DNA of 64,000 nucleotides, from IMG/VR virus record IMGVR_UViG_3300025326_000020; one strand, given 5' to 3'. The translations under genes and the position numbers were made by a program. The notes under the pieces were generated by a model. That model saw only the letters and a list, made by a program, of their open reading frames with translations. It ran no database searches and had not been told where the DNA came from. Positions within the stretch are counted from its first letter, which is position 1. Each line of letters begins with the position of its first letter. This stretch comes from a virus (lineage: Duplodnaviria; Heunggongvirae; Uroviricota; Caudoviricetes). Below, one piece after another: positions 12,092-64,000 of this stretch.

Positions 12092-12099
12092 GAGTAGTT

Positions 12100-12369
12100 A
12101 TGTCTGAGAACGTACAAGCGCTATATACAGGATTGTGCAGATACGGTCCATACCACACTCTAAGAATGACTTCTAAATATGTTGCCGGTTTCTACTTGGT
12201 TAGGCTGTCAGATAGTTGGGTGTGGGTTTATGACTACAATCAGCAACGAAAGTTGTTTACTGCACAATCTAACGAAGGTAGATTAGCAAACGAAGGTGAG
12301 ATAGACGAAGTAACATCTGGGGGCATTTGGGATTATAAGGTGTTCGCAGAACCTCCTGTTGGAGGATAA
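12100..12369 (+). CDS. hypothetical protein
   Basis: ORF with GGAG RBS. Confidence 0.45.
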   Translation: MSENVQALYTGLCRYGPYHTLRMTSKYVAGFYLVRLSDSWVWVYDYNQQRKLFTAQSNEGRLANEGEIDEVTSGGIWDYKVFAEPPVGG

Positions 12370-52631: not shown

Positions 52632-52712
52632 GTGGGTCGGAAGGATTCGAACCTTCATCACCGGCATTGCTGCCCGCTCTACCATTTGAGCTACTAACCC
52701 TCGAACAGCGCA
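52632..52712 (-). ncRNA. tRNA-like element: canonical D-arm and T-arm, GNRA tetraloop hairpin (GGCA-GCAA-TGCC) in place of the anticodon arm, mismatched acceptor; 3' side ends in the CGACCCAC repeat
   Basis: D-arm GCTCAAATGGTAGAGC; T-arm GAAGG-TTCGAAT-CCTTC; no anticodon loop; 5'/3' acceptor strands not complementary. Confidence 0.45.
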
Positions 52713-52853
52713 ATCTTCGTCTTCCAGGACTAGGATACTATTGCTGCCGGTCCCCTGGAAAGGACTTGCACAGAACAGGATTATGAGTCCTGCCCAGTAC
52801 CTTTATCGTGGAGAGTGGTTAGCTCTCCACGCCCGGTTACCAGCCGGGAGCTA

Positions 52854-53087
52854 TTATGGCTTTACTACACCGTGCACAGTAATCTGCATTTGATCACTGT
52901 CTGTCGGTGTGTACTCTTTATGTTCCTGAACAGATACTCTACTTTCTGGAACCATGTTCTTACATTGTTCTACTAACCAACGTAGATCTTCTAGAGTTAT
53001 AGGTTCGTTTATAGATATATCAGTTTGTATTTTTCTACTCACGTGGGGAATCATGGATTTGAACCACTCGTTTGGATTCCGGCCCAA
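52854..53087 (-). CDS. hypothetical protein
   Basis: ORF; partly overlaps a degenerate tRNA-like element. Confidence 0.3.
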   Translation of the reverse strand: MGRNPNEWFKSMIPHVSRKIQTDISINEPITLEDLRWLVEQCKNMVPESRVSVQEHKEYTPTDSDQMQITVHGVVKP

Positions 53088-53122
53088 ACTTTACCGTGCG
53101 TGCACGTCTGCACATCCCCTAT
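53045..53122 (-). ncRNA. degenerate tRNA-like element (T-loop TTCAAAT, GGGG/CCCC ends)
   Basis: T-loop and partial acceptor only; no canonical D or anticodon arms. Confidence 0.3.
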
Positions 53123-53165
53123 GTCGTTGACATTCAGCCTAGCAAGCATGAGCAGCAATGTCAAG

Positions 53166-53381
53166 CTAGATTTCCTCTTGATCACTAGGCTGTCTATGTT
53201 GCTTACGCTTGTTCTTAATTGCGTAGAATGTCCTATTTAACCGTTTTGCTAGTTGCTGGATGCTTAGATCACCAGTGGCTATCAGTGCAATCTCCCAGTC
53301 TTCCCACGGTTGGTGGTTTCTGGTTGCATATGCTAACGATCTGGCTTGACGTGATTGCTCTATTGCTTTTCTTCTAGCCAT
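53166..53381 (-). CDS. small HTH DNA-binding protein (start moved to internal Met to clear the tRNA)
   Basis: LSIQQLAKRLNRTFYAIKNKR helix-turn-helix-like. Confidence 0.4.
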   Translation of the reverse strand: MARRKAIEQSRQARSLAYATRNHQPWEDWEIALIATGDLSIQQLAKRLNRTFYAIKNKRKQHRQPSDQEEI

Positions 53382-53411
53382 AATTTCCAAAGTTTCTACT
53401 ATTTTACGAAG

Positions 53412-53484
53412 TGCTCTCAGAGGGATTCGAACCCTCACTTATCAGGACTTAAATCTGATGCCTCTGCCGTTGGGCTATGAGAGC
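53412..53484 (-). tRNA. class-I tRNA with leucine-type anticodon TAA (identity uncertain)
   Basis: perfect acceptor GCTCTCA/TGAGAGC; anticodon arm TCAGA-TTTAAGT-CCTGA (one A.C mismatch); T-arm GAGGG-TTCGAAT-CCCTC; discriminator A. Confidence 0.55.
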
Positions 53485-53626
53485 TTGTGTTGGAATCATC
53501 GAACTTCTTAAAACATGCTTGACATTGTATAAACCTAGTATTATTTATTGCGACCCCTAAATAATACACCTCATCTTGACCACATTGCGGACAAGAGTAG
53601 GACATCTTCTTCATTTGAGTCTCCAA
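53435..53626 (-). CDS. small zinc-ribbon protein (C-terminal 16 codons run through the tRNA)
   Basis: CPQCG...CQAC. Confidence 0.35.
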   Translation of the reverse strand: METQMKKMSYSCPQCGQDEVYYLGVAINNTRFIQCQACFKKFDDSNTSSHSPTAEASDLSPDK

Positions 53627-53835
53627 TTCTTTTTACGTTGTGCTGCTCGTGCGCTCAGAATACCACCTACCGTAACTAGAACGTCATAGTTAGGTTCCTG
53701 CACTATGGCAACAATTAAGTTAGCTGCTTGTTGCTGATCCATACCATCTTCTATTAGCGCGATGAAACCAGCTATGACTTCATCAGTCATCCCCATCTGT
53801 CTGGCCTTAGCCACTATGTCATCAGTGCCTTGCAT
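53611..53835 (-). CDS. hypothetical protein
   Basis: ORF. Confidence 0.4.
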   Translation of the reverse strand: MQGTDDIVAKARQMGMTDEVIAGFIALIEDGMDQQQAANLIVAIVQEPNYDVLVTVGGILSARAAQRKKNWRLK

Positions 53836-53855
53836 GATTTCTCCTGATCATTGTC

Positions 53856-53936
53856 GGAACGGCGTAGGCCCCGGACTACATGCGGCTCTGGTGACTCGCC
53901 AGCAGCAAAGCTCCTGACACTTTCCTAGCCGTTCCT
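53856..53936 (-). ncRNA. candidate structured RNA: 8-bp terminal stem GGAACGGC/GCCGTTCC with bulged extension and internal hairpin
   Basis: inverted repeats enclosing ~65 nt in an ORF-free interval 3' of rsr. Confidence 0.3.
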
Positions 53937-54221
53937 TAGTTGACCTAACCCCTATCAACATGTTAGCCCTTTAACGTGGTGACCACTGGATCTATAAGCT
54001 AACTTCCCCACGGTGTTAAGGTGCTTGGCTCCATCGGTGAGTCAATATGCCAAGCCGCACGCTCATCGTGCCCGTCGTGATATAGCATCAGCAATCGTAG
54101 CTTTGCTGCCTCAGCCCCCAAGGCTACTATACCAGCCGTGTCAAACGCAGTTTTGAGTCTCCCTTCAAGGACCAACTCTAACTGGCTCACTAACCTATCC
54201 TATGTAACAAATAGGATAGAC

Positions 54222-54363
54222 TGCCTCGATCGCTGGACTTGAACCAACAACCTCCAACTTAGCATCCCAGATCACTGTGGCCACAGCTCCCCTTTGTCTA
54301 AAACATGTGTGTACACACATGTTTTAGTTTTGTCGGTGCTCTATCCAATTGAGCTAGATCGAG
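54222..54363 (-). ncRNA. candidate Y RNA (YrlA-like tRNA mimic): tRNA scaffold with ~75-nt insertion replacing the anticodon arm
   Basis: perfect 7-bp acceptor CTCGATC/GATCGAG; canonical D-arm TAGCTCAATTGGATAGAGC; T-arm GTTGG-TTCAAGT-CCAGC; insertion contains a 14-bp perfect hairpin CTAAAACATGTGTG/CACACATGTTTTAG and the 12-nt palindrome CTGTGGCCACAG; ~290 nt 3' of the Ro60 orthologue on the same strand. Confidence 0.5.
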
Positions 54364-54434
54364 TAGTGGCTCTCCTTTTTCTCACCAGTGGCGAGAGCCG
54401 TTCCACTAACCGGAATCAGTGCAGTCGCTGAACA

Positions 54435-54653
54435 CTAACCCGGGAGACTAGTTGTTATAGTACGTGAATACAATTCATCCAGCCTTGTATCAATAGGACG
54501 CTTGAAATAAAAACGAACACTACCAATGTGGGTTGCGAGTGGATGAGCTGATACCAATTCCCAACCCTGTAGACCTAAAGAATCTAAGATCTCTTGCTGG
54601 TTATCAGGGTGACGAGCAACTTCGGTTTTGTATTCCCACAACACGTGAATCAT
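54435..54653 (-). CDS. small DUF4177-like protein
   Basis: LGLQGWELVS motif; overlaps the rsr stop. Confidence 0.4.
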   Translation of the reverse strand: MIHVLWEYKTEVARHPDNQQEILDSLGLQGWELVSAHPLATHIGSVRFYFKRPIDTRLDELYSRTITTSLPG

Positions 54654-56281
54654 ATGTTACCAGCCGAGAATTGTGATACCAGTGCTGGTAGATTAGCGTC
54701 GCCACCAACTACGTCTAACATTCCACGATCGCTAGGATCTGCAATCGTAAAGTTGGTAGCAGATGCAGCCGCAACAATCAGCTTAGCATCAATACCTGTC
54801 TTCTGTCGGTACTGCTTTATTGCCTGGAATGGATGTACGTCACCAAACCAAGTCTCATTGTCAGTGTATATCATAAAGGTATCGACTGCAATGTTGTGCT
54901 TGGCAGCGTAAAGCATCGGCTGTGCACAATCCGTACGACCAAACGACATACTGTTAGTAATTCGCAGAACATCATCTAGACGCATTCCAGGAGAAATACC
55001 TAGATCCTTCATTACATCTGAGAAACCAAAGGCTAGATAGAATGGCTCAGTCTTAGCAACTGAAAGGACCATTGCCGCACCAAGTTCAGCAGCAGTCAGA
55101 TCTAGTCCTGATGCAGCCTGCTTCATTGAACCAGAAACGTCAAGACCAATGAAGAATCTCTTGTTCGATGGCTCAACATAACTAAAGGACTTGTAGAATG
55201 CATCGTTCAATGCATCCACAATTACTGGTGAAGTTGTCCAGTCCTTAGGCTTATAAGCTGCTGGACCACCGAAGCCCATAGGGTATTTATATCCACCCTG
55301 TGTCTCACGAGCAATTTGACCCTTAGTATGCACCATTAGTGCAAGCAAGAACTGAATAGGGTGTAGTCTGGTCTTCTGAATCATTGTCTCGTTAGTGAGC
55401 GCGGTTGCAATCTCACGAGCGAACACCATATCGTTGAACATACCCAATCTTGCAAAGCGAGTAATGTTACGAACAAGTGCCTGACCAGTGAGCTGTCCAT
55501 TGCGGTAAAGCTGATGCCAGACTCTCGGTTCCTTATGGTACTGAGTTGGCACAACTTCCCATGGTAGACCAGGAACAGCTTCTAGTACATTCAAAAGTTC
55601 TTCAACATTTGGTGCTGCCTGTGCAATCTTAAAACCTGCAACTAGTTGGTGTTCACCACTATCAAAGCCAGTCTTACCAAGGATGAACTCACCAATACCT
55701 GGTACAAAACTGCCCTTAACGTGTGATAGTCTAAACATATCACGATGAGTCCAACCGTCGCGCTGGCGATACTTAACCGCCTGGTAGGCTAGCTGGTCTG
55801 GCGTCTTGTGGGTGTACCAGTCAGCTACCGCACGGCGCTTGGTCTTGCCCCAACCACCACCACCGTAATAAGTTCCTAGGTACTTTGCGAACTCATACAG
55901 CATAGTAGATGTACGGCACACACGCTGCACCAAGCTAGATAGGTCACGCTTCTTACCATATTTACCAAGTGCCGCCACTACAAAGACAGCGTACTTGTTA
56001 CGGAAAGCACGACCAGATTCTGAAACTTCCAGAACTGTGTCAATAACTAGCTGCTCATCACGATCAATTAGATCAATTAGGAAGTTCACGTTTTCACGTG
56101 TAAGAGGCTTCTCATCCTGGTAGTAGGTACCTTTCTCAGTACCAACAATTAGGAATCTTTCAAGTCTAACCTTGTCTGATACAGCGAAGACAAACCCACC
56201 AGCATTGTTCTTAACCTGATCTAGTCGAGCCTGCTCACGCTGTGTTGATGCAGTAAGGCTGCGAGAAAATACGTCACTCAT
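54650..56281 (-). CDS. rsr: Ro60/Rsr orthologue (TROVE domain + C-terminal vWA domain)
   Basis: N-terminal VRLERFLIVGTEKGTYY aligns with the human Ro60 RLHRFLCFGSEGGTYY region; C-terminal vWA with MIDAS FFIGLDVSGSM; 543 aa, typical Ro60 size. Confidence 0.8.
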   Translation of the reverse strand: MSDVFSRSLTASTQREQARLDQVKNNAGGFVFAVSDKVRLERFLIVGTEKGTYYQDEKPLTRENVNFLIDLIDRDEQLVIDTVLEVSESGRAFRNKYAVFVVAALGKYGKKRDLSSLVQRVCRTSTMLYEFAKYLGTYYGGGGWGKTKRRAVADWYTHKTPDQLAYQAVKYRQRDGWTHRDMFRLSHVKGSFVPGIGEFILGKTGFDSGEHQLVAGFKIAQAAPNVEELLNVLEAVPGLPWEVVPTQYHKEPRVWHQLYRNGQLTGQALVRNITRFARLGMFNDMVFAREIATALTNETMIQKTRLHPIQFLLALMVHTKGQIARETQGGYKYPMGFGGPAAYKPKDWTTSPVIVDALNDAFYKSFSYVEPSNKRFFIGLDVSGSMKQAASGLDLTAAELGAAMVLSVAKTEPFYLAFGFSDVMKDLGISPGMRLDDVLRITNSMSFGRTDCAQPMLYAAKHNIAVDTFMIYTDNETWFGDVHPFQAIKQYRQKTGIDAKLIVAAASATNFTIADPSDRGMLDVVGGDANLPALVSQFSAGNI

Positions 56282-56329
56282 TCTCCGACCCCTTCCGGGA
56301 TATTTTAGTGTTAGTTTTGTTTGGTTAAG

Positions 56330-56422
56330 TGGAGGTATAAGGATTCGAACCTTATCTACACAGTTAGCTAAACTGCGCTCATTAGGTGGCTATCCTAATG
56401 GCCCGTGACCCCCAAGGTACGT
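56330..56422 (-). ncRNA. tRNA-like structured element 5' of rsr (T-arm plus two hairpins; acceptor not closable)
   Basis: T-arm TAAGG-TTCGAAT-CCTTA; hairpins CATTAGG-ATAGCCA-CCTAATG and CAGTT-TAGCT-AACTG. Confidence 0.35.
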
Positions 56423-56454
56423 TGGATATAATTTAAATATAGGCGTGCGCAGGA

Positions 56455-56560
56455 TCATGGGTTCCGATTTGAACGGAAGTTTCACATCTACGATGTGTGT
56501 CTTGCCACATTAGACGACCCTTGATAACCTATACTCGTCCGACCCAACGTAATGTTAGTA
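56455..56560 (-). ncRNA. tRNA-like member of the GTGGGTCGGA repeat family
   Basis: 5' GTTGGGTCGGA-CGAG-TATAGGTTATC; 3' T-arm-like TCCG-TTCAAAT-CGGA followed by ACCCA, which pairs with the 5' TGGGT. Confidence 0.35.
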
Positions 56561-56684
56561 TTCCCAACCACACCAACAATCTACTATTTCTTCTTTAGTC
56601 CATGGTGTGGTGTCATGCTTCAAAATCTTTTTTATCAGTTCAGTTTTACCTGAATTTGGATGGCCAATAACACCTATTGTTTGT

Positions 56685-57959
56685 TCAGAAGTTGAACGGA
56701 GTGGTTGTTCCGTTGGCGTTGAGGTAGGCATTTCCTGATTCCTCGTATCCTACGTTGCTTGGATACCATGAGTGCACTGGTCCTGAGTTACCACATCTAG
56801 CATGCCACAGCTTACCAAATCTGTTATCGAAATACCTTACATTCTTAGCGGTTGGACCACCAGTGTATGTGCAGTATTCGCCAGCAGCATTAAGCAAATT
56901 GTACCGGACTAGCACACCATCCATTGCACCTTCATCATACAGTGACAATGCTGACGAGCAGCCCTGTGGGCCTGGATCAGCAAATACCGCACGATAGCAG
57001 TTTAGGTTGTTGTGCCAAATCACAATGTTCTTGCCATAGTTCATCCCAACAGCCGCTTGGTGAGCACCTGTAGTGTAAACCATTCGCGTCACGTATGAGT
57101 CCGTGATACTTACGTTGTTTCCACCACCAATACCTGTTGAGGTATCATGTACGTAGCAACGTAGACAAGAGTAGTTATCACCATCAGCCACCGGCGCCGC
57201 ATTTGTAACGGCACTAGTGATCTCAACATCTATCAGCTTCAAACCACGATAGTTCTTGCTTGCTGACCAATGTGGTGAGATTGCACCAACAATAAGCGAA
57301 TTACGAATGGTGATGTTTCCTGCTACATCGTGCACCCGAAGAAATCCTTGACTACCTTGGAAAATGCAACCATCAAAAATCAGGTTGCCCTTTTCAAAGT
57401 GACCATCAAAGTTATCTGGGTTACTTGCCGGTGTGGCATCCTGCTCACTACAACGCTTAAGATCTGTCTTCGTCAATCCCGTATGCACATATCCAGTGCA
57501 ATTCTCATCCGGGAACGCTGGCCATGGAGCACAGAATAACACAGGACCAGGACCCGGAGGATCTGTTGGCGTAGGAGTTGGGGTCGTCGTTACTGTGGGT
57601 GTTGGTGTTGCTGTCGGGCTTGGTGTAATGGTAGGACCCACAGTAGGACTGGGTGTCGGAGTAGCAGTAACCGTAGGAGTTGGGGATGGTGTAGGTGTTA
57701 CCTCAGGCAGAGTAAATGCACTGACACAACGAACTAACCATTCTCGATCCGCTGCTGATAATGGTGCAGGATTATCAAGACGGTCCTGACAATCCTGACG
57801 GGCACTATCAGCAGTCGCTGCACTACTAGCACTAGCTCCGAACGACAGCGTGTTTGCGGTCGCTCCGACTACTAGAAACGCAGCGGCTACTGTTGTTACT
57901 AATTTTGCTTTTGTCAGCACTTGCTTGCCTCCTAATGTTGGCATCCCGTGACATGGCAA
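56685..57959 (-). CDS. secreted protein: signal peptide, Pro/Thr-rich linker, right-handed beta-helix (pectate-lyase-like) domain
   Basis: N-terminal hydrophobic signal; TPTPSPTPTVTATPTPSPTVGPTITPSPTATPTPTV linker; repetitive NxxIxN beta-helix-like C-terminal domain. Confidence 0.55.
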   Translation of the reverse strand: MPCHGMPTLGGKQVLTKAKLVTTVAAAFLVVGATANTLSFGASASSAATADSARQDCQDRLDNPAPLSAADREWLVRCVSAFTLPEVTPTPSPTPTVTATPTPSPTVGPTITPSPTATPTPTVTTTPTPTPTDPPGPGPVLFCAPWPAFPDENCTGYVHTGLTKTDLKRCSEQDATPASNPDNFDGHFEKGNLIFDGCIFQGSQGFLRVHDVAGNITIRNSLIVGAISPHWSASKNYRGLKLIDVEITSAVTNAAPVADGDNYSCLRCYVHDTSTGIGGGNNVSITDSYVTRMVYTTGAHQAAVGMNYGKNIVIWHNNLNCYRAVFADPGPQGCSSALSLYDEGAMDGVLVRYNLLNAAGEYCTYTGGPTAKNVRYFDNRFGKLWHARCGNSGPVHSWYPSNVGYEESGNAYLNANGTTTPFNF

Positions 57960-57969
57960 AATTGTTTAC

Positions 57970-58054
57970 GCGGTGAAGGTAGGATTTGAACCCACGGTGC
58001 TTTTACACACTTCCGCTTTCAAGGCGGATGCCTTAAGCCTCTCGGCCACTTCAC
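57970..58054 (-). tRNA. tRNA-Ser (anticodon TGA), type II
   Basis: perfect acceptor GGTGAAG/CTTCACC; anticodon arm TCCGC-CTTGAAA-GCGGA; long variable arm GTGTGTAAAAGCAC; T-loop TTCAAAT; 85 nt. Confidence 0.7.
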
Positions 58055-58105
58055 CAAACTTTATATATGTTTCCATGTTCTTCTAGCTATAAGTTCTCTT
58101 ATTAA

Positions 58106-58453
58106 TTACCAATCATGATCATCGGTTATCGGTGATAGATCATCAGGATCAGCACCAATGAGTTTACAAAGCTTAGTCCAAATTTTGAGCAAACAAATTT
58201 CACAATAATCACGACGGAACTGCTGGTGTACACATTGATCAGGATTGAGATAGATTGATAACTCAGACAGTTCAACATCACCGTCAGGTATTACTAAACC
58301 ACAACCATCGCATGTATAGTGTACAATCTGTATTGTCTGACTTACTTCTCTAGTTTCAACCCTTGTACTGTACCGTCTAGACATGATGCTCCTAGAGTGC
58401 TTTGGATATGTTATCGCAATCGTAAATGAGGCCCCACTTATACAACTATCCAC
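58106..58453 (-). CDS. hypothetical protein
   Basis: ORF. Confidence 0.4.
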   Translation of the reverse strand: MDSCISGASFTIAITYPKHSRSIMSRRYSTRVETREVSQTIQIVHYTCDGCGLVIPDGDVELSELSIYLNPDQCVHQQFRRDYCEICLLKIWTKLCKLIGADPDDLSPITDDHDW

Positions 58454-58578
58454 CGTGGTTAACGCTATCTTCCGTAGCTCCCACCAAATGATGCATAATC
58501 TAGTGTTAGAGTATGATCTCAGGGCTCTCTCGCGATGTAAGTTAAACGATTACTGCCGACCCAAAGCGAGTCTAGAAG

Positions 58579-59370
58579 CTAGCAGCTACGAATGGCAATA
58601 CCTCGTGCTCTAAGCCAAGGTGCTGGATTAATCTGATTCCATAGTCCCTTGTGCACTTCAAAGTGCAGATGTGGTCCGGTCGCATGACCAGTTGCACCAA
58701 CATAGCCTATGATTTGACCAGCCTTAACCCTTTGACCGTTGCTGACAATTTCACGGCTCATGTGTGCATAGTGAGTATATACGTTGCCACCATGATTAAC
58801 AAACACCGAGATACCATAGCCGGAATAAATCCAACCCGACTTATATATTGTACCGGCGGATACCGCACGTATCGGCGTACCTGTGGGCTTTGCCAGGTCT
58901 ACTCCCTGGTGCATACTACCCCATCGCATTCCGAAACATGAGGTAACGGCCGCACCCTTTAGTGGGTTGACCCATTTTGCTGAGCTAATCGTTGGTTTTG
59001 GCTTGGTTGCCGGTGCGACTGTCTTAACGGTAACACCTAATTTGGGAATCCACAACCGTTGGCCGTCCAAAATTATATTCGGATCGGCAACTCTACTCTT
59101 GTTTGCCTTGTAAATGGTGGGCCATAAACTAGCCTTACCATAGTAATGCTTAGCCATTCCAGACAAGGTACCATTAATAGACGGATAAGCTGTAACATTA
59201 GCCCAGAAGCCATCGGCTGATTGTGCTGCACTTATCTTTTCTACTGTGAATTCAACATTCGTTGGTTGTGCTGTGATCGATGCTGCGGTTGCGCTAGTTT
59301 CTGTTAGTAGGAGTGTGCCAATGGCGATTAAACCTGCAATAGTAATTGCGGCTAATCTGGTTCTCTTCAT
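58579..59370 (-). CDS. secreted LysM + M23 (LytM-type) peptidoglycan endopeptidase
   Basis: signal peptide; LysM-like HYYGKASLWPTIYKANKSRVADPNIILDGQRLWIP; M23 motifs HQGVDL and GPHLHFEV. Confidence 0.7.
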   Translation of the reverse strand: MKRTRLAAITIAGLIAIGTLLLTETSATAASITAQPTNVEFTVEKISAAQSADGFWANVTAYPSINGTLSGMAKHYYGKASLWPTIYKANKSRVADPNIILDGQRLWIPKLGVTVKTVAPATKPKPTISSAKWVNPLKGAAVTSCFGMRWGSMHQGVDLAKPTGTPIRAVSAGTIYKSGWIYSGYGISVFVNHGGNVYTHYAHMSREIVSNGQRVKAGQIIGYVGATGHATGPHLHFEVHKGLWNQINPAPWLRARGIAIRSC

Positions 59371-59736
59371 TAGATTCCTAACACTGTGCAGAAACAGACA
59401 GTAGTGCTAGGAATCGAATAAGAAGTCTGTTTCCGCTCCTATATGATTATTAAGTTGTAGCGAAACCTCTCAGCCCTTATGGTTTCATGGGAGCCCTCAA
59501 CAATTGTGCCGCTCCTACTACACACCATACCATTTCAGTGGCATCTGGTATGGCAGCCACCAACGTTAATACCTAACAAGTTCGGCGAAATCCTACGGGG
59601 GAGGAGCCGAACGATTCAGGTATTTCTACAGCCACCGTGACTCTAATAATAAGAACACATTAGTTGTTTCACACACTGATCCCTAAGGAGAGAGTTGTGT
59701 ACAGGTCTCCTGTACCACCATGACTAATGTGTTCAG

Positions 59737-59808
59737 TGCTTTCAACAGGACTCGAACCTGTGCACTCCCGGCTTCAACGGGATGCTCTACCAGCTAAGCT
59801 ATGAAAGC
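59737..59808 (-). tRNA. tRNA-Phe (anticodon GAA)
   Basis: perfect acceptor GCTTTCA/TGAAAGC; D-arm GCTTAGCTGGTAGAGC; anticodon arm TCCCG-TTGAAGC-CGGGA; T-arm ACAGG-TTCGAGT-CCTGT. Confidence 0.75.
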
Positions 59809-59950
59809 ATAACATTAGCTTCTCTTTTCAGAACTCTATGGAAGCTCTTGATGTCTCCAACATCTGTGATCGTATGTTTGACCACGTAGACACCAACGTT
59901 TGATACATAATCTTTTGTGTGGAAATTTTCTATTGAACCATGCTTTCACG

Positions 59951-60022
59951 AGACGCCAGTAGGATTCAAACCTACGTAGATTGGATTTGCAATCCAATGC
60001 CTAATCACTCGGCCATGACGTC
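59951..60022 (-). tRNA. tRNA-Cys (anticodon GCA)
   Basis: acceptor GACGTCA/TGGCGTC; anticodon arm TTGGA-TTGCAAA-TCCAA; T-arm GTAGG-TTTGAAT-CCTAC. Confidence 0.6.
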
Positions 60023-60029
60023 ATTCTTA

Positions 60030-60167
60030 CTAATCGTCAGTAAATGCAGTTGTTGCTAGTTCATCAAACTTCTCTACAATTTCTTTGCGCTTCTTAACTA
60101 CGACTAGAACTAGTGCAACTGCTGCTGCTGCTGTTGCCCCTGCTACTAGCCATACTACCTTAGGCAT
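60030..60167 (-). CDS. unannotated 45-aa single-transmembrane peptide (below the ORF-track size cutoff)
   Basis: ATG at 60167; hydrophobic WLVAGATAAAAVALVLVVV followed by KKRKE. Confidence 0.3.
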   Translation of the reverse strand: MPKVVWLVAGATAAAAVALVLVVVKKRKEIVEKFDELATTAFTDD

Positions 60168-60225
60168 AACTCTCCAATTGATTATAGCGTATGGATATGT
60201 TTATTGATATCGGATATCTTATGTC

Positions 60226-60251
60226 GTTAACCGATTTCATCCGACCCATAC
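60226..60251 (+). repeat. GTTAACCGA-N6-TCCGACCCA repeat copy
   Basis: matches 63892..63916. Confidence 0.5.
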
Positions 60252-60280
60252 GTGAGATACCATTCCCGTGGTTGATCTCG

Positions 60281-60352
60281 TGGTCATAGAAGGAGTCGAA
60301 CCTTCAGGGCTATTGCTTTACAGGCAACGCCAGACACCATATCAGTACGACC
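60281..60352 (-). tRNA. tRNA-Tyr-like (anticodon GTA) with short variable loop and atypical D-arm
   Basis: acceptor GGTCGTA/TATGACC; anticodon arm GTTGC-CTGTAAA-GCAAT; T-arm GAAGG-TTCGACT-CCTTC. Confidence 0.4.
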
Positions 60353-60531
60353 AATTTATTACGTAGTGTGAGGCCATATCATGTTCGGACAAGAACAAAG
60401 AATACACCGAAAAGGTGTCCCTGGATCAGTTGGATCAAGATTGAGTGTGTCATCTAGACGGTGATCATCGCTGCTATGTTCACAGCTTGTACAATTTTCA
60501 GGTTCCATAATCAACACTCACTTTCTTATAG

Positions 60532-60604
60532 GGTGTATGACGGGATTCGAACCCGCGAATGAATAGGATCACAACCTATTTCCTGATGCCCCCGGATCAT
60601 ACAC
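60532..60604 (-). tRNA. tRNA-His (anticodon GTG)
   Basis: acceptor GTGTATG/CATACAC; anticodon arm ATAGG-TTGTGAT-CCTAT; T-arm GCGGG-TTCGAAT-CCCGT. Confidence 0.55.
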
Positions 60605-60606
60605 AG

Positions 60607-60679
60607 TACCAACGGTGGGACTTGAACCCACACTTTACGGCACCTAAAGCCGTTCCCTCTGCCATTGGGGTACGTTGGC
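60607..60679 (-). tRNA. class-I tRNA with leucine-type anticodon TAG (identity uncertain)
   Basis: acceptor GCCAACG/CGTTGGT; anticodon arm ACGGC-TTTAGGT-GCCGT; 5-nt variable loop; T-arm GTGGG-TTCAAGT-CCCAC; discriminator A. Confidence 0.6.
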
Positions 60680-60968
60680 ATATGTACTGTCATCTGGCCT
60701 TCATCTTCCGATTAAGACTTCCACTATGTCACCAAGTGACAGTACACATCTAACACTTCGATTACAATGTACTTCCATGCCACGCATGGGACGAATCTCT
60801 GTGTCTACAACAACCTATGTTAGTTCAGTTGCGGTACAGGCCCTCGCCTATTGTAATCGACATTTATTGGTAACGAATACGTTGACAGTCAATACAAGCA
60901 AAACACCAAACACGCTTGTGCTGCCAACAAATACCTAAGTTACTTAGTCTACGGAAGAAGCGCATTTG

Positions 60969-61526
60969 TTAACTCCTCGTTGCAACGATTATAGTTATTA
61001 CTGTTGCAATGAAGCTTATTAAGCCTACGAGGTATCCCCAACCATCTTTCAGACCCGTGCCTCGTCCAGCGCGTGAAATGCTGTCATTCTTTAGTTCATC
61101 AATAGAAACCATTATACCTCTTACGTCTCTATCCATTCTTTCGGATAGAGATGTTGTTTCCCTGCCAATTCTTTCCGTCAATGAAGTAAGTCTTTGCTGA
61201 GCTTCTGATCTAGGCATTTGTTGTGAAATAACATCATTAACTAATTGACGGAACTCATTAACAGAATCAAAGCGCTTCTCAGCAGCAACTTCAGCTTTTG
61301 TTACAGCTTTTTCAGCAGCAGTTAAAGCTGTTTGCACCGCTTTTTCGGCAGCAAGAAGTGCAGCATCAAGAGCCTTAATTTGCGCATCATACCTTTGTTG
61401 ATAGCGCAAATCCATTTCACTCAGTAATGCCGTTATGTGCTTATCACGCTCGTCCAGTAATACTTTTACGTGGCTAAATACAGAAATTACATTACCAACT
61501 GTATCACTGGCGTCGGGAAACACCAT
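60969..61526 (-). CDS. coiled-coil protein with C-terminal transmembrane anchor (ElaB/DUF883-like architecture)
   Basis: start set at the internal Met preceded by GGAGAG; Ala/Glu/Lys-rich helical region; C-terminal GWGYLVGLISFIATVITIIV. Confidence 0.45.
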   Translation of the reverse strand: MVFPDASDTVGNVISVFSHVKVLLDERDKHITALLSEMDLRYQQRYDAQIKALDAALLAAEKAVQTALTAAEKAVTKAEVAAEKRFDSVNEFRQLVNDVISQQMPRSEAQQRLTSLTERIGRETTSLSERMDRDVRGIMVSIDELKNDSISRAGRGTGLKDGWGYLVGLISFIATVITIIVATRS

Positions 61527-61725
61527 TTTTAACTCTCCAATTAAGGGGAGCAAAAAGAAAAATGGTTCCGATTTGTTAACTAGAGTTTGGGAACCAAAAA
61601 CCATTTCTCCATCTACACTGAATTTTTACAGGCGCTTTAACGTCAGCCCAAAAATTATGTAGACTCAAACGTGGCGACGGTTAACCTTTACAAACCCGAA
61701 GGTTACAGTGTTAACAAACTGGACG

Positions 61726-61810
61726 CGAAAGATATAGGATTCGAACCTATGGAGGTTTTACCCTCAACGAGTTAGCAACTCGTCCCATTAAGCCACTCTG
61801 GCAATCTTTC
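61726..61810 (-). tRNA. tRNA-Ser (anticodon GCT), type II
   Basis: perfect acceptor GAAAGAT/ATCTTTC; anticodon arm ACGAG-TTGCTAA-CTCGT; variable arm GAGGGTAAAACCTC; T-arm ATAGG-TTCGAAT-CCTAT. Confidence 0.6.
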
Positions 61811-61896
61811 TCACTGGTATAGAATAATCTATACCAGCTAGTCACAAATGTTTGTCAGAATTTGTGACAACTCTATGCGCGGGTGCGAGCCTATCG

Positions 61897-61967
61897 AACG
61901 GCCTACCAGGATCGAACTGGCATACTCTGGGTGGAGGCCAGATTCCTTACCATTAGGATAAGGCCGC
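61897..61967 (-). tRNA. tRNA-Gly (anticodon TCC) with unusual C33
   Basis: acceptor GCGGCCT/AGGCCGT; D-arm TCCTAATGGTAAGGA; anticodon arm TCTGG-CCTCCAC-CCAGA; T-arm GCCAG-TTCGATC-CTGGT. Confidence 0.6.
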
Positions 61968-62149
61968 AAGTCCAAGGTAACACTGGCTCCAATGTTACCT
62001 TGGAGTAAAGTCCAGAGTAGTACAAGGGACGAGAAGTGTGGATGGGCAACCCGCCCAATACTACTCTGGAGTAAAGCCTAGCTAGTCCCAGAGGACAGCT
62101 AGGAGCTATGGAGTGTGGATATGTTATGAGATCGGGTTTGGACTAGGCG

Positions 62150-62223
62150 CCATGCCTTTTCGTCAGGAATCGAACCTGAATCGTCTGATTAATAGTCAGA
62201 TAACCAATACTCTTCCGACCCAC
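62150..62223 (-). ncRNA. tRNA-like member of the GTGGGTCGGA family (anticodon-like loop CTATTAA; no closable acceptor)
   Basis: 5' GTGGGTCGGA-AGAG-TATTGGTTATC; hairpin TCTGA-CTATTAA-TCAGA; T-arm TCAGG-TTCGATT-CCTGA. Confidence 0.4.
62199..62223 (+). repeat. GATAACCAATA-N4-TCCGACCCAC repeat copy
   Basis: matches 63577..63601 and 56523..56548. Confidence 0.5.
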
Positions 62224-62359
62224 ACTCTGAGTCACTAAATTGATAATGATGCATGACATTGGCTTATTAACGCATACTCCTCACATACTGCAAGGTATCT
62301 GTGTCCTGGGTCATGACTCCAGTTAGGCACCCCGGGCACCTATCATATACCAACATCAT

Positions 62360-62445
62360 CCGCAAAGGTGGAGAGATTCGAACTCTCATAATCGGTTTTG
62401 GAGACCAATCAGCACAACCTACGCTCACCGATAAGGTGGCCATCC
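62360..62445 (-). ncRNA. tRNA-like structured element (T-arm GAGAG-TTCGAAT-CTCTC plus long-range 8-bp helix TAATCGGT/ACCGATTA)
   Basis: no canonical cloverleaf. Confidence 0.3.
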
Positions 62446-62842
62446 ATTTGGTTAGCAAGGCGATGGCCTATTCCTTGTATTATAGCTTATCTACAGATCG
62501 CGTTTAGTTTTTTCAGTAGAGCTGACGTTTCATCATGGCTCAGCTAATTCCATGACTTCTATAGATAAACTGTTTTGAATAGTACAATCGAACGATCTGA
62601 CTAACCTTTAACAGGGCCAACTGTTTGCGTTCAGATAGTATGGTTACTCCGGCTAAGAGCCATAGCGTTTGATTGTACAATAGACTCGCCATTTCTGGCG
62701 TCGCAGTACAATCTTGTTTGCCAAGACTATACTACTAAAAGCTTTTCGTGGCCGGGGACGAGATCCCACGCTTCCACAACCATACACTGCAACTAATCGG
62801 CAAACTAGTGTTGCAAATGTACCAAGCCTCTTACTGGTTCCG

Positions 62843-62915
62843 TACCATTAGTAGGATTCGAACCTACAACCTCATGCTTCGGAAGCATTTGCTCTATCCA
62901 TTGAGCTATAACGGT
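62843..62915 (-). tRNA. tRNA-Arg (anticodon CCG)
   Basis: acceptor ACCGTTA/TAATGGT; D-arm GCTCAATGGATAGAGC; anticodon loop TTCCGAA on ATGC/GCAT stem; T-arm GTAGG-TTCGAAT-CCTAC. Confidence 0.6.
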
Positions 62916-63050
62916 GTACGCCCACCAACATTCTACAGCGTAAAGCTTGACAGGCTTCATATGCTTATGAATGGTAGGTAAAGGCAGGTCTCCATAAACC
63001 CTACGTTGCTCACTGCCTCTTTGCCCGTCACGGCATACCAACAGTGCATG

Positions 63051-63137
63051 TACCATCGGTAGGACTCGAACCTACATACCGTACAGCCGTCGCTGGCCTG
63101 CTAATACGCAGGTGCTCTGCCATTGAGCTACGATGGT
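63051..63137 (-). ncRNA. type-II tRNA-like gene with aberrant 6/8-nt anticodon loop (GTATTA)
   Basis: perfect acceptor ACCATCG/CGATGGT; D-arm GCTCAATGGCAGAGC; stem CCTGC/GCAGG; 21-nt variable region; T-arm GTAGG-TTCGAGT-CCTAC; 87 nt. Confidence 0.4.
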
Positions 63138-63195
63138 ATAAAAGCGGAGGCCAGAGGGAATATAAGCTAGACATCCGACTGGACCTCCGTTTAAG

Positions 63196-63267
63196 CACGC
63201 TTAGTAGGAATCGAACCTACATCCTTAGTTCCGTAGACTAAAGCTCTCTCCGTTGAGCTATAAGCGT
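63196..63267 (-). tRNA. tRNA-Arg (anticodon ACG)
   Basis: perfect acceptor ACGCTTA/TAAGCGT; D-arm GCTCAACGGAGAGAGC; anticodon arm TTAGT-CTACGGA-ACTAA; T-arm GTAGG-TTCGATT-CCTAC. Confidence 0.75.
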
Positions 63268-63394
63268 ATAGGCAGTGCAACATTCACAGTGCGGGATTGT
63301 TGCCCCGACTAGGTTCGTCAACCTCCCCTAGTTTATACGTTGCACTGGCTAGAAATCTTCCCTGCCAGGGAAGTTTGGTAGTTCGGATATATGT

Positions 63395-63530
63395 TTGTAA
63401 TCGAAAATGCCTTTCGGCAATGACAGTCGCTCTTCCACTGAGCTACAAGGAAGGATTCGAACCTCCGACATACTGTTTATCCGTTAATCGATTAGCTCCG
63501 ACCCGAACCAAAGCTAGATCCTGTGGATAT
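63395..63530 (-). ncRNA. composite tRNA-like region: D-arm GCTCAGTGGAAGAGC with GNRA hairpin TGCC-GAAA-GGCA, adjacent T-arm GGAGG-TTCGAAT-CCTTC
   Basis: tRNA modules present but not assembled into one canonical cloverleaf. Confidence 0.3.
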
Positions 63531-63576
63531 GTAACCTTCTATCAGAATTATTGTTGCCGCAAATTTTGTCGCGGTA

Positions 63577-63601
63577 AGATAACCAATAGAAGTCCGACCC
63601 A
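63577..63601 (+). repeat. GATAACCAATA-N4-TCCGACCCAC repeat copy
   Basis: matches 62199..62223. Confidence 0.5.
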
Positions 63602-63891
63602 CAGGGTACTTAACGATGTAATGACAGGCGACATCTACTGTTCGTTTAAGACTACCTTCTAAGGGAGAGGAATCCCTGTCATTACATCTTGTGGGTGGGA
63701 TTGGCTATTTCCCAACGATAATCGTCCAGACATGCCGGTGCTGGCCCACGTGGTTGTACTGTAAAAGCAATGGCGATGACCAATGCTTGTTAAATTTGTT
63801 CATAAGTGTTGTGGATATAAAGTAGACATCGGGTTATTGTGCTGACGTATCCGATAAATCAGATACGTTCAACATCATATCATCCCTATGA

Positions 63892-63916
63892 GTTAACCGA
63901 CGTCAATCCGACCCAC
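63892..63916 (+). repeat. GTTAACCGA-N6-TCCGACCCAC repeat copy
   Basis: matches 60226..60251. Confidence 0.5.
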
Positions 63917-64000
63917 AACTAATAAGTCCAGTGAACATGTTTGAGAATTGGAAATTTTTTACACCGACTACGTCGATGTTGTCACTCCCATGTGACTATT

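What the first reader, a model, noticed from the sequence alone, without database searches (positions are those of the whole stretch)
52632..63916. Family of at least 8 copies of a GTGGGTCGGA-containing tRNA-like module, one embedded in the rsr ribosome-binding site
The 10-mer TCCGACCCAC (- strand RNA GUGGGUCGGA) recurs at 56538, 60240, 62214, 63592, 63907, in variant form at 63497 and 56284, and on the opposite strand at 52632. Copies share extended context: - strand GTGGGTCGGA-N4-TATWGGTTATC at 56523, 62199 and 63577; GGGTCGGATGAAATCGGTTAAC-like at 60226 and 63892. Several copies sit at the 5' end of degenerate tRNA-like folds with T-arms. The copy at 52632 supplies the complementary CGACCCAC as a 3' acceptor-like strand. 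The motif GGGTCGGA also overlaps the rsr Shine-Dalgarno (ggaaGGGGTCGGAgaATG). The 5' consensus GGGUCGGAAGAGUAUUGGUUAUCUG loosely resembles the conserved 5' Ro60-binding segment of metazoan Y RNAs (GGUCCGAAGGUAGUGAGUUAUCUC). This fits duplicated Y-RNA-like or Rsr-binding modules, possibly with an autoregulatory copy in the rsr leader.
Basis: partly seen in the sequence, partly recalled or inferred. Interest (0 to 1): 0.75.

Follow-up and report, generated by a model that had tools for sequence, protein, structure and literature searches.

The report
Seven phage Y RNAs plus leader mimic
The repeated GUGGGUCGGA motif marks seven unannotated Y RNA genes (partner RNAs of the Ro60/Rsr protein) beside a phage rsr gene. 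An eighth, rearranged copy sits on the rsr ribosome-binding site and may let Rsr control its own synthesis.

Summary
The motif is about 40-fold over chance and strand-specific.

**What it marks.** It is the 5' half of a two-stranded core: 5' [stem1]GGGU|CGGA and 3' ACAU|AUCC[stem1']. This core closes seven RNAs of 65-169 nt on the minus strand, 0.1-7.5 kb upstream of a full-length rsr gene (54650-56281).

**Structure.**
- Stem 1 and stem 2 covary: 13 of 17 pairs show compensatory changes across 17 sequences from four phages.
- The central "effector" domains are unrelated between paralogues.
- One copy is an acceptor-less YrlA, two more carry T arms, and four have no tRNA-like part.

**Relatives.** The same architecture occurs unannotated in Streptomyces phage Moab, in mycobacteriophage Catera and in uncultured relatives (up to ~8 per phage). 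These are therefore actinophage-type Y RNAs, a known kind in an unusually large set.

**The rsr leader copy.** It is a circular permutation, AU|AUCCC-GGAA-GGGGU|CGGA-GA-AUG. A hairpin followed by CG lies within 60 nt of the start in 47 of 86 phage rsr leaders (the stricter form is ~380-fold enriched there) and in a few bacterial leaders. Its stem covaries and its core tracks that phage's own Y RNA core. It probably acts as an Rsr-binding translational operator. This is inferred, not shown.

**The copy at 52632.** It is the 3' end of a separate tRNA-like gene, not a family member.

The parts
63808..63919 (-). Y1, a 112-nt Y RNA. Stem 1 is GUUGUGGGU/AUCCACAAC. The effector is a branched hairpin domain with no tRNA-like part.
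   Evidence: Descriptor hit. The MFE fold gives stem 1 and stem 2, z = -4.4. CM R1 scores 48.8 bits.
63520..63605 (-). Y2, an 86-nt Y RNA. Stem 1 is CCUGUGGGU/AUCCACAGG. The effector is a single hairpin.
   Evidence: 47.5 bits; z = -5.0.
63379..63510 (-). Y3, a 132-nt YrlA-type Y RNA. It has a T arm (GGAGGUUCGAAUCCUUCC), a D arm (GCUCAGUGGAAGAGC) and an anticodon-stem-like helix, but no acceptor-like stem-loop.
   Evidence: Rfam YrlA scores 32.2 bits against a gathering score of 69, E = 8e-4. Orthologues occur in 7 phages, and the RNAalifold consensus has 28 of 40 pairs with compensatory changes.
62111..62227 (-). Y4, a 117-nt Y RNA. It has an anticodon-arm-like hairpin with a 7-nt loop plus a T arm (CAGGUUCGAUUCCUG).
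   Evidence: (44.4 bits). A partial Rfam tRNA match lies inside it (62162-62210, 24 bits). An orthologous effector domain occurs in L007.
60188..60252 (-). Y5, a minimal 65-nt Y RNA: stem 1, internal loop, stem 2 and a small loop only.
   Evidence: Best CM R1 hit, 57.3 bits, E = 7e-12. Fold.
58399..58567 (-). Y6, a 169-nt Y RNA with core GGGUCGGC and a large conserved effector domain.
   Evidence: Effector orthologues occur in L002 7884-8041 and L003 8367-8524, scoring 73 and 67 against a shuffled maximum of 27.
56418..56551 (-). Y7, a 134-nt Y RNA with a T-arm-like hairpin (UUCCGUUCAAAUCGGAA). It ends 137 nt upstream of the rsr start.
   Evidence: z = -3.6.
56282..56306 (-). rsr leader element AAAAU|AUCCC-GGAA-GGGGU|CGGA-GA, immediately followed by the AUG. 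It is a circularly permuted Y core: the 3' loop strand, then stem 1 capped by a GNRA loop, then the 5' CGGA strand. It overlaps the ribosome-binding site.
   Evidence: Sequence and fold. Conserved in relatives. Its core co-varies with each phage's own Y RNA cores.
54650..56281 (-). rsr, a full-length Ro60 orthologue of 543 aa.
   Evidence: Pfam TROVE (5e-35) and vWA_Ro60 (2e-58). PDB matches: 2NVO Rsr at 2e-91 and 1YVP Xenopus Ro60 at 1.5e-89.
52633..52700 (-). Free-standing tRNA-like gene. Its 3' end, UCCGACCCAC, is the reverse complement of the Y 5' motif. The anticodon loop is replaced by a GCAA tetraloop. It is not a Y module.
   Evidence: Rfam tRNA 35.3 bits. Fold. No 3' Y motif and no orthologue found.

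Best explanation
The window comes from an uncultured phage related to the tRNA-rich Streptomyces BE-cluster phages. It encodes a Ro60/Rsr protein and a battery of seven Y RNAs, interleaved with tRNA genes on the same strand and probably cut out of long transcripts.

**Architecture (shown).** Each RNA is closed by the same docking module.
- Stem 1 is 9-10 bp and ends in GGGU/AUCC.
- An internal loop follows, CGGA on the 5' side and (A)ACAU on the 3' side.
- Stem 2 is 7-10 bp and ends in ..GG, followed by UUAWC.
- Seven unrelated central domains hang on this module. One is an acceptor-less YrlA-type tRNA mimic, two carry T arms, and four are non-tRNA-like.

**Proposed function of the Y RNAs (inferred).** By analogy with characterised Y RNAs, the module binds Rsr. 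The variable domains would tether Rsr to different partners, or gate it differently.

**Proposed function of the leader copy (inferred).** An eighth copy of the core is permuted so that stem 1 is a capped hairpin, and it lies directly on the rsr ribosome-binding site. The most likely role is a translational operator. Free Rsr would bind it and block the ribosome, so that Rsr synthesis follows the amount of Y RNA available to soak up Rsr.

**Shown versus inferred.** Shown: the motif, the structure, the covariation, the conservation and the linkage to rsr. Inferred: Rsr binding, the roles of the effector domains and the repression.
For: **Family is real and structured.**
- The motif is enriched.
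- The full descriptor gives 7 hits against 0.115 expected in shuffles. In 85 related phage loci it gives 40 hits on the rsr strand and 3 on the opposite strand.
- All seven MFE folds recover stem 1 and stem 2 independently.
- On 17 sequences from four phages, 97.9% of cells are paired and 13 of 17 pairs show double changes. Slid controls give 27-44% paired.
- A CM built from these sequences finds further copies in loci L002 and L003, which were not used to build it, plus extra copies in L001, L004 and L005. All are on the rsr strand, upstream of rsr.

**Link to known Y RNAs.**
- rsr is complete.
- Y3 gives a weak Rfam YrlA match.
- The YrlA-class alignment has 28 of 40 compensatory pairs.
- Mycobacteriophage Catera has three RNAs of the same architecture upstream of rsr. 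Mycobacteriophages are the phage group in which YrlA-type RNAs were first reported (PMC4201824).
- The 5' motif matches the published GNCGAA/CGAA Rsr-binding motif (PMC4201824, PMC12135203).

**Modularity.** Effector domains are unrelated between paralogues, but Y3, Y4 and Y6 have orthologous effectors in other phages.

**Leader element.**
- It is present in all six close relatives, in otherwise unconserved leaders.
- 47 of 86 phage leaders have a hairpin followed by CG, against 9% of background windows.
- The strict form gives 28 hits in 3.4 kb of leader and 60 hits in 2.8 Mb elsewhere.
- The stem covaries, with 3-4 pair types at positions 1 and 5. The upstream AU is conserved although it was not required by the search.
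- The hairpin lies 4-22 nt from the start codon.
- GGGUCGRA-type and GAGCCGRA-type leader cores follow the Y RNA cores of the same phage.
Against: - No expression, end-mapping or binding data exist for this phage.
- Rfam YrlA is not reached at its gathering score (32 against 69), and Rfam Y_RNA gives nothing.
- Four of the seven copies lie more than 4 kb from rsr, outside the published distance criterion.
- The leader hairpin alone is thermodynamically unremarkable (z = +0.5). Within the closest clade it shows only one-sided changes.
- The hairpin is absent from Catera, Sixama, Farewell and most actinobacterial rsr leaders, so it cannot be a universal requirement.
- Hairpin detection required pairing, so the percentage paired in the leader set holds by construction.
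- Any two adjacent Y RNAs create an AUCC...GGGU junction, so the leader could have arisen as a by-product.
Confidence: 0.75

Rival explanations
1. The leader hairpin is not an Rsr operator. It could be a 5' stabilising hairpin, an RNase processing signal for the rsr mRNA, or a neutral remnant of a junction between two tandem Y RNAs into which rsr was placed.
For: - Tandem Y RNAs automatically create AUAUCC...GGGUCGGA junction hairpins, for example in L010-L012.
- The hairpin is weak (-7.8 kcal/mol including the flanking helix, z = +0.5).
- It is missing from several rsr-bearing phages and from most bacteria.
Against: - The loops are tight (3-5 nt) and the stems are extended by compensatory pairs.
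- The single-stranded flanks AU and CGRA are conserved, which a simple stabiliser would not need.
- In L003 and L005 the element follows an ORF directly rather than a Y RNA.
- It always lies within 22 nt of the start codon.
- Its core changes together with the phage's own Y RNA cores.
Confidence: 0.3
2. The copies are degenerate tRNA genes or tRNA pseudogenes left over from duplications in the tRNA array, and the shared motif is an ancestral acceptor/D-region sequence.
For: - Three copies carry T arms, and one has a partial Rfam tRNA match.
- The region holds 27 tRNA genes and several aberrant tRNA-like genes.
- The motif's reverse complement is the acceptor 3' strand of a tRNA-like gene at 52633-52700.
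Against: - The conserved module (two stacked helices around a CGGA/ACAU loop, then UUAWC) is not part of any tRNA fold.
- Four copies have no tRNA-like element at all.
- The module is kept with compensatory changes across phages whose Rsr proteins are only 50-60% identical. Pseudogenes would not preserve it in this way.
Confidence: 0.04
3. The motif belongs to a generic dispersed repeat with no link to Rsr: a REP- or MITE-like element, a phage promoter or terminator, or a recombination site.
For: The copies sit in intergenic positions within a dense same-strand gene array.
Against: - The copies are strictly on one strand and confined to the 7.6 kb upstream of rsr. Relatives show the same confinement.
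- Promoter-like and terminator-like sites are not enriched.
- The central parts differ completely between copies, unlike mobile repeats.
- The architecture equals that of the Y RNAs upstream of rsr in mycobacteriophage Catera.
Confidence: 0.03

Closest known systems
YrlA/YrlB-type bacterial and mycobacteriophage Y RNAs (Chen et al. 2014, PMC4201824; Rfam RF02553)
   Same: - Encoded beside rsr on the same strand.
- The 5' and 3' ends pair.
- A GNCGAA-type motif lies on the 5' strand at an internal loop, followed by a second helix and a YUAY-like UUAWC.
- At least one member (Y3) has tRNA-like T and D arms.
- Mycobacteriophage Catera shows the same core..GGC|CGAR..UCGGUUAYC...CCAU|GUCU...
   Different: - The motif is GUCGGA rather than GNCGAA.
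- Both strands of the core are conserved, whereas the paper recognised only the 5' strand in YrlA RNAs.
- Y3 lacks the acceptor-like stem-loop.
- There are seven paralogues rather than one or two, and four have no tRNA-like domain.
- The Rfam gathering score is not reached.
Yrl1 and Yrl2 of Thermus phage phiLo (PMC12135203)
   Same: Phage-encoded Y-like RNAs upstream of a phage Ro60 gene. They have a 5'-3' stem flanking a bulge with a CGAA motif, and they were shown to bind the phage Ro60.
   Different: - An unrelated phage lineage with two RNAs only.
- No conserved 3' ACAUAUCC strand was reported.
- That paper's main text holds no occurrence of 'UTR' or 'own mRNA'.
Metazoan Y RNAs (hY1, hY4)
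   Same: The 5' strand is strikingly alike. Human: GGUCCGA-N9-GUUAUC (strings confirmed). Phage: GGUCGGA-N7-9-GUUAWC. Both have a stem, loop, stem layout with a variable loop domain.
   Different: - There is no bulged C and the 3' strand is different.
- Rfam Y_RNA gives no match at E <= 10.
- The phage RNAs are not Pol III transcripts.
- The likeness may reflect a shared Ro60 binding surface rather than descent.
Translational operators that mimic a protein's main RNA ligand, such as ribosomal-protein leaders, the E. coli thrS operator and the phage T4 regA/gene 32 operators (from general knowledge)
   Same: A copy of the protein's preferred RNA site is placed on the ribosome-binding site of its own mRNA. 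It is conserved with covariation, which suggests competition between the ligand RNA and the mRNA.
   Different: - The mimic here is a circular permutation of the ligand's core.
- No such operator turned up for any Ro60 protein in three full-text searches.
- Binding and repression are untested.

Membership tests
Bacterial/phage Y RNA (YrlA class) | Encoded near the Ro60/rsr gene on the same strand (published criterion: within 4 kb) | tested here: met
   All seven are on the rsr strand. Y7, Y6 and Y5 lie 137, 2118 and 3907 nt upstream. Y4 to Y1 lie 5.8-7.5 kb upstream, beyond the 4 kb rule.
Bacterial/phage Y RNA (YrlA class) | Terminal 5'/3' stem with an internal loop carrying GNCGAA(N0-1)G on the 5' strand | tested here: met
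   The stem covaries. The motif is GUCGGA in the window (one A to G change) and GUCGAA in relatives such as L4_d, L5_b and L5_d.
Bacterial/phage Y RNA (YrlA class) | At least one Y RNA per genome with a tRNA-like domain (T arm, acceptor-like stem, D arm) | tested here: inconclusive
   Y3 has T and D arms and an anticodon-stem-like helix. The acceptor-like stem-loop is absent here and in L002, although it is present in the orthologues of six other phages.
Rfam RF02553 YrlA | Score at or above the gathering threshold (69 bits) | tested here: not met
   Y3 scores 32.2 bits, E = 8e-4, and the other copies give no match. The model also misses the YrlA-type RNAs of Moab and Catera, so the threshold is too strict for actinophage members.
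Bacterial/phage Y RNA (YrlA class) | Bound by the cognate Ro60/Rsr protein | not testable with these tools
   Requires immunoprecipitation or a gel-shift assay.
Metazoan Y RNA (Rfam RF00019) | Match to the family model, and a bulged GGUCCGA helix with its conserved 3' partner | tested here: not met
   No match at E <= 10 in 52-64 kb. Only the 5' strand resembles it.
Autoregulatory operator mimicking the protein's RNA ligand | Lies in the protein's own mRNA, overlapping the ribosome-binding site | tested here: met
   The hairpin is at 56301-56288, CGGA at 56287-56284 and the AUG at 56281. In 29 non-redundant leaders the distance to the start codon is 4-22 nt.
Autoregulatory operator mimicking the protein's RNA ligand | Resembles the primary ligand in sequence and structure, and is conserved among orthologues | tested here: met
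   Both loop strands (AU and CGRA) and stem 1 are kept. 47 of 86 phage leaders carry it, with ~380-fold enrichment. The stem covaries and the core tracks the phage's own Y RNA cores.
Autoregulatory operator mimicking the protein's RNA ligand | The protein binds the operator and represses translation | not testable with these tools
   Requires a gel-shift assay, toeprinting and reporter fusions.

The most novel reading that the evidence does not exclude
Ro60/Rsr controls its own translation through a circularly permuted Y-RNA mimic on its ribosome-binding site. This would be an operator conserved in many phage rsr genes and some bacterial ones (for example Nocardia), so that Y RNA abundance sets Rsr synthesis by titration. 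It would be the first cis-regulatory mRNA target described for a Ro60 protein. The seven Y RNAs would form a natural library of effector modules that direct one Rsr ring to different tasks during infection.
Probability: 0.45. Interest if true: 0.8.

Novelty: new variant of a known kind. Interest (0 to 1): 0.62.

Why it matters
Y RNAs and Ro60 are conserved from bacteria to humans, and Ro60 is a major lupus and Sjogren autoantigen. Two questions remain open: what the variable Y RNA domains do, and how Ro60 and Y RNA levels are matched.

- **A comparison set for effector function.** This phage lineage carries seven or more Y RNAs that share one docking module and have unrelated effector domains, some of them conserved across phages. 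That gives a ready set for asking what effector modules recruit.
- **A testable feedback mechanism.** The conserved Y-core mimic on the rsr start site suggests a simple feedback loop that gel shifts and reporter fusions could test.
- **Missing annotation.** None of these RNAs is annotated in the deposited Streptomyces phage Moab and mycobacteriophage Catera records examined here, and Rfam's YrlA model misses them. The core defined here could be used to annotate them widely.
- **Context from other phages.** Phage Ro60 proteins have been linked to co-opting host PNPase (PMC12135203) and to countering a defence system (PMC11482910).

Tried and rejected
- **Close relatives.** Megablast of 52-64 kb against deposited phages gave no match. 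A single-protein scan of viral contigs also gave nothing. An alignment-based scan worked.
- **Rfam.** At gathering thresholds it finds only tRNAs. YrlA is sub-threshold, including in phages with canonical YrlA, so Rfam membership could not be used as a criterion.
- **MAFFT on full-length copies.** It misaligned the 3' strand of stem 2. I therefore aligned 'mini-Y' sequences with the central domain removed. That alignment is partly ascertained, because stem 1 flanks were required to pair.
- **CM search with filters off.** It lost the long-insert copies. Default filters found them.
- **MAFFT on leader hairpins.** It failed because loop lengths vary. Pair types were counted by script instead.
- **rsr embedded in a giant Y stem.** I looked for a 3' Y motif downstream of rsr. 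None is present.
- **A conserved helix enclosing the leader hairpin.** RNAalifold does not support one.
- **Orthologues of the tRNA-like gene at 52633-52700.** None were found. Whether its 10-nt complementarity to the Y 5' ends means anything is unresolved. One occurrence has a chance expectation of about 0.06 per strand.
- **Neighbouring proteins.** They gave no RNA-repair or PNPase-like functions. The 424-aa ORF is not RtcB.
- **Promoter and terminator scans.** Uninformative.
- **Supplementary tables of Chen et al. 2014.** These give phage Y RNA counts but are not held in the library.

Full report
**Setting**

The window has 40-55% G+C. It carries 27 tRNA genes, all on the minus strand between 39 and 63 kb. 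The ORF at 54650-56281 (minus strand, 543 aa) is a full-length Ro60/Rsr orthologue:
- Pfam TROVE and vWA_Ro60.
- D. radiodurans Rsr (2NVO) at E = 2e-91 and Xenopus Ro60 (1YVP) at E = 1.5e-89.

No deposited phage matches at the DNA level. The closest cultured Rsr proteins, at about 51% identity, belong to the 130-kb tRNA-rich Streptomyces BE-cluster phages such as Moab. Uncultured relatives reach 55-60% identity. A metagenomic contig that is 99.99% identical (L166) extends 2.3 kb beyond the window end.

**The observation**

TCCGACCCAC occurs four times exactly, against 0.10 expected. With up to one mismatch it occurs eight times, against 1.98 expected.

Each 5' GGGUCGGA is matched 50-150 nt downstream by ACAUAUCC. 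The 5-6 bases before the first motif are complementary to the bases after the second:

| 5' flank | 3' flank |
|---|---|
| GUUGU | ACAAC |
| CCUGU | ACAGG |
| GGUUC | GAAC.. |
| GAGUGU | ACACUC |
| CGUAU | AUACG |
| GCUUU | AAAGC |
| ACGUU | AACGU |

A descriptor combining both motifs and at least 5 flanking pairs gives seven hits, all on the minus strand, against 0.115 in shuffles. No further copy lies in the 2.3 kb beyond the window. None of the seven overlaps a called gene.

**Anatomy**

All seven minimum-energy folds give the same frame:
- Stem 1 of 9-10 bp, ending in GGGU/AUCC.
- An internal loop, CGGA on the 5' side and (A)ACAU on the 3' side.
- Stem 2 of 7-10 bp, ending in ..GG.
- UUAWC, followed by a variable domain.

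I aligned the two conserved ends of 17 copies from the window, Moab and two uncultured phages, with the central domain removed. In that alignment 97.9% of cells pair and 13 of 17 pairs carry changes on both sides. Slid controls give 27-44% paired. The flanks of stem 1 were required to pair by the descriptor. Stem 2 was not, although its register was chosen within a short range.

A covariance model built from this alignment found further copies in L002 and L003, which were not used to build it, and extra copies in L001, L004 and L005. All are on the rsr strand, upstream of rsr.

**Central domains**

The seven central domains differ completely from one another.
- **Y3** has a T arm, a D arm and an anticodon-stem-like helix. 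It gives the only Rfam YrlA signal, 32 bits against a gathering score of 69. Its orthologues in seven other phages give an RNAalifold consensus with 28 of 40 pairs compensated. The acceptor-like stem-loop is present in six of those orthologues and deleted in the window and in L002.
- **Y4** has an anticodon-arm-like hairpin plus a T arm.
- **Y7** has a T-like arm.
- **Y1, Y2, Y5 and Y6** have no tRNA-like part.
- **Y6** has an effector domain conserved in two relatives, and **Y4** in one.

The shared unit is therefore a docking module, not a 'tRNA-like module'. The paralogues are not recent whole-element duplicates.

**What the copies are**

The same core occurs upstream of rsr in mycobacteriophage Catera (three RNAs..GGC|CGAR-..UCGGUUAYC...CCAU|GUCU..). 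It also occurs in Mycobacterium phage Farewell, Gordonia phage Sixama and Microbacterium phage A3Wally. Mycobacteriophages are the phage group in which YrlA-type Y RNAs were first reported (PMC4201824).

The published Rsr-recognition motif GNCGAA(N0-1)G corresponds to GUCGGA here and to GUCGAA in relatives. Thermus phage phiLo Yrl1 and Yrl2, with a CGAA bulge between two stems, have been shown to bind their phage Ro60 (PMC12135203). I therefore file the seven RNAs as actinophage-type Y RNAs.

Rfam's YrlA threshold is not met, but it is also not met by the Moab or Catera RNAs.

Two features go beyond the published description:
- Both strands of the core are conserved. The 2014 paper recognised only the 5' strand in YrlA RNAs.
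- The copy number is high. There are seven here and six to eight in the closest relatives, against three to five in BE-cluster phages and three in Catera. Published work describes one or two in the characterised bacteria.

Human Y1 and Y4 read GGUCCGA-N9-GUUAUC (strings confirmed). The phage RNAs read GGUCGGA-N7-9-GUUAWC. The 3' strand differs, and Rfam Y_RNA finds nothing.

**The copy on the rsr start site**

Immediately before the AUG the minus strand reads AAAAU-AUCCC-GGAA-GGGGU-CGGA-GA (56306->56282). This is the Y core in permuted order:
1. The 3' loop strand (..AU).
2. Stem 1, closed by a GNRA loop.
3. The 5' loop strand (CGGA).

The likely Shine-Dalgarno purines lie in the loop and in the 3' arm.

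All five nearest relatives, and Moab, carry the same element in otherwise unconserved leaders. Moab has compensatory changes: AU-GCCCA-AAA-UGGGC-CGAAAGGA.

Across 86 phage rsr loci:
- 47 have a hairpin followed by CG within 60 nt of the start, against 9% of background windows.
- The strict form (AU, hairpin, CGRA) occurs 28 times in 3.4 kb of leader and 60 times in the other 2.8 Mb, about 380-fold enrichment.

Among 29 non-redundant leaders:
- The outermost pair is G-C in 17, A-U in 8 and U-A in 4.
- The fifth pair has four types.
- The U and A upstream of the stem are conserved (28 and 24 of 29), although the search did not require them.
- The hairpin ends 4-22 nt before the start codon.

The leader core follows the phage's own Y RNA cores. 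GGGUCGRA-type phages have GGGU or GGGC leaders. GAGCCGRA-type phages (L009, L048, L056, L062, A3Wally) have GAGC or GAAC leaders.

In L003 and L005 the element follows an ORF, not a Y RNA. It is therefore not merely the tail of an upstream Y RNA.

It is absent from Catera, Sixama and Farewell. Only about ten of 80 mostly actinobacterial rsr loci have it, notably several Nocardia.

Three full-text searches for Ro60/Rsr autoregulation or binding to its own mRNA returned no report of such an element.

**Mechanism proposed**

*Shown:* a conserved, covarying two-stranded core shared by seven RNAs next to rsr, and a permuted copy on the rsr ribosome-binding site.

*Inferred from established Y RNA biology* (Rsr binds the 5'-strand motif at the stem, and variable domains tether partners such as PNPase):
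- The seven RNAs dock on Rsr and give it different partners or gating.
- Free Rsr also binds its own leader and blocks initiation, so Y RNA abundance titrates Rsr synthesis.

I put the Y RNA identity at about 0.9 and the operator role at about 0.45-0.5.

*The main rival for the leader* is a stabilising or processing hairpin, or a junction relic. Tandem Y RNAs do generate such junctions. The conserved single-stranded flanks, the fixed distance to the start codon and the co-variation with the Y RNA cores argue against this rival.

Generic repeats and tRNA pseudogenes are excluded as explanations for the family. The evidence is strand and locus confinement, the unrelated centres, the covariation, and the lack of any enrichment of promoter-like or terminator-like sites.

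**The copy at 52632**

It is the last 10 nt (T-stem end, acceptor 3' strand and discriminator) of a free-standing tRNA-like gene at 52700->52633. Its anticodon loop is replaced by a GCAA tetraloop. It has no 3' Y motif, and no orthologue was found.

Its perfect complementarity to the 5' ends of Y1, Y2 and Y4 is unexplained and could be chance, at about 0.06 expected per strand. In two relatives (L003, L005) a Y stem encloses a nearly complete tRNA-like fold; the L005 fold has a similarly shortened anticodon loop.

**Verdict**

The RNAs are new members of a known kind. Two aspects are new variants worth testing: the large modular Y RNA set, and the permuted Y-core element on the rsr start site.

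Noticed in passing
window 52633-52700 (-): Free-standing tRNA-like gene with acceptor, D and T arms, but with a 4-bp stem and GCAA tetraloop in place of the anticodon arm. Its 3' end is the exact reverse complement of the 5' end of Y1, Y2 and Y4.
   Followed up: partly
window 53070-53089 (-): Minimal hairpin GUUUGG-gccggaau-CCAAAC, which looks like a Y core with everything between CGGA and AU deleted. It is intergenic, about 15 nt upstream of the start (53054) of a 66-aa ORF. It is the only such hairpin in the window, and the CM match is weak (11 bits).
   Followed up: partly
window 56330-56414 (-): tRNA-like fold between Y7 and rsr. It has a 7-bp acceptor stem, no D arm, two long hairpins and a canonical T arm (AAGGUUCGAAUCCUU). 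Neither ARAGORN nor Rfam calls it.
   Followed up: partly
window 62363-62421 (-): D-arm-less tRNA-like gene with a 7-nt loop CUCCAAA (anticodon CCA, Trp), Rfam tRNA 29.0 bits. No standard tRNA-Trp was found in the window.
   Followed up: no
window 54224-54363 (-): 140-nt tRNA-like gene (Rfam tRNA 38.8 bits) with normal acceptor, D and T arms. It has an insertion of roughly 70 nt in the anticodon region that includes a perfect 13-bp hairpin. Fold z = -4.0.
   Followed up: no
window 63050-63137 (-): An 88-nt tRNA that ARAGORN cannot assign (a two-base 'anticodon'). Rfam tRNA scores 50 bits. The anticodon loop is odd and the variable arm is long.
   Followed up: no
window 56555-56731 and 56685-57959 (-): A 58-aa ORF with a P-loop GTPase motif overlaps the end of a 424-aa ORF of unknown function in another frame. 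This could be a frameshift or a split gene. The 424-aa protein is not RtcB.
   Followed up: no
L001 (Streptomyces phage Moab MT114162) 11622-11744, 11825-11964, 11975-12119, 13067-13137: Four Y RNAs of the same family lie unannotated between tRNA-Ile, tRNA-Ser and rsr in a deposited, cultured phage genome. One of them starts 1 nt after tRNA-Ile.
   Followed up: partly
L005 9538-9663; L003 8795-8919: Y stems that enclose an almost complete, non-permuted tRNA-like fold (Rfam tRNA 44 and 40 bits). The L005 fold has a very short anticodon loop. These are a Y-tRNA chimera class not seen in the window.
   Followed up: partly
L087-L165 (actinobacterial rsr loci), 25-50 nt upstream of rsr: A recurrent ACACGCCCG(Y)C motif that corresponds to the 3' core strand (AYAY|RYYC plus stem) of a Y RNA ending just upstream of rsr. 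It is often followed by CGAAAGGAGG at the ribosome-binding site.
   Followed up: no
window 31006-31045 (+): Weak match to the Y-core model (15 bits, E about 0.2-0.5): GUUGUGGGUAGAUAG...CAUAUCCAGAAC, on the opposite strand and far from rsr. Probably chance.
   Followed up: no
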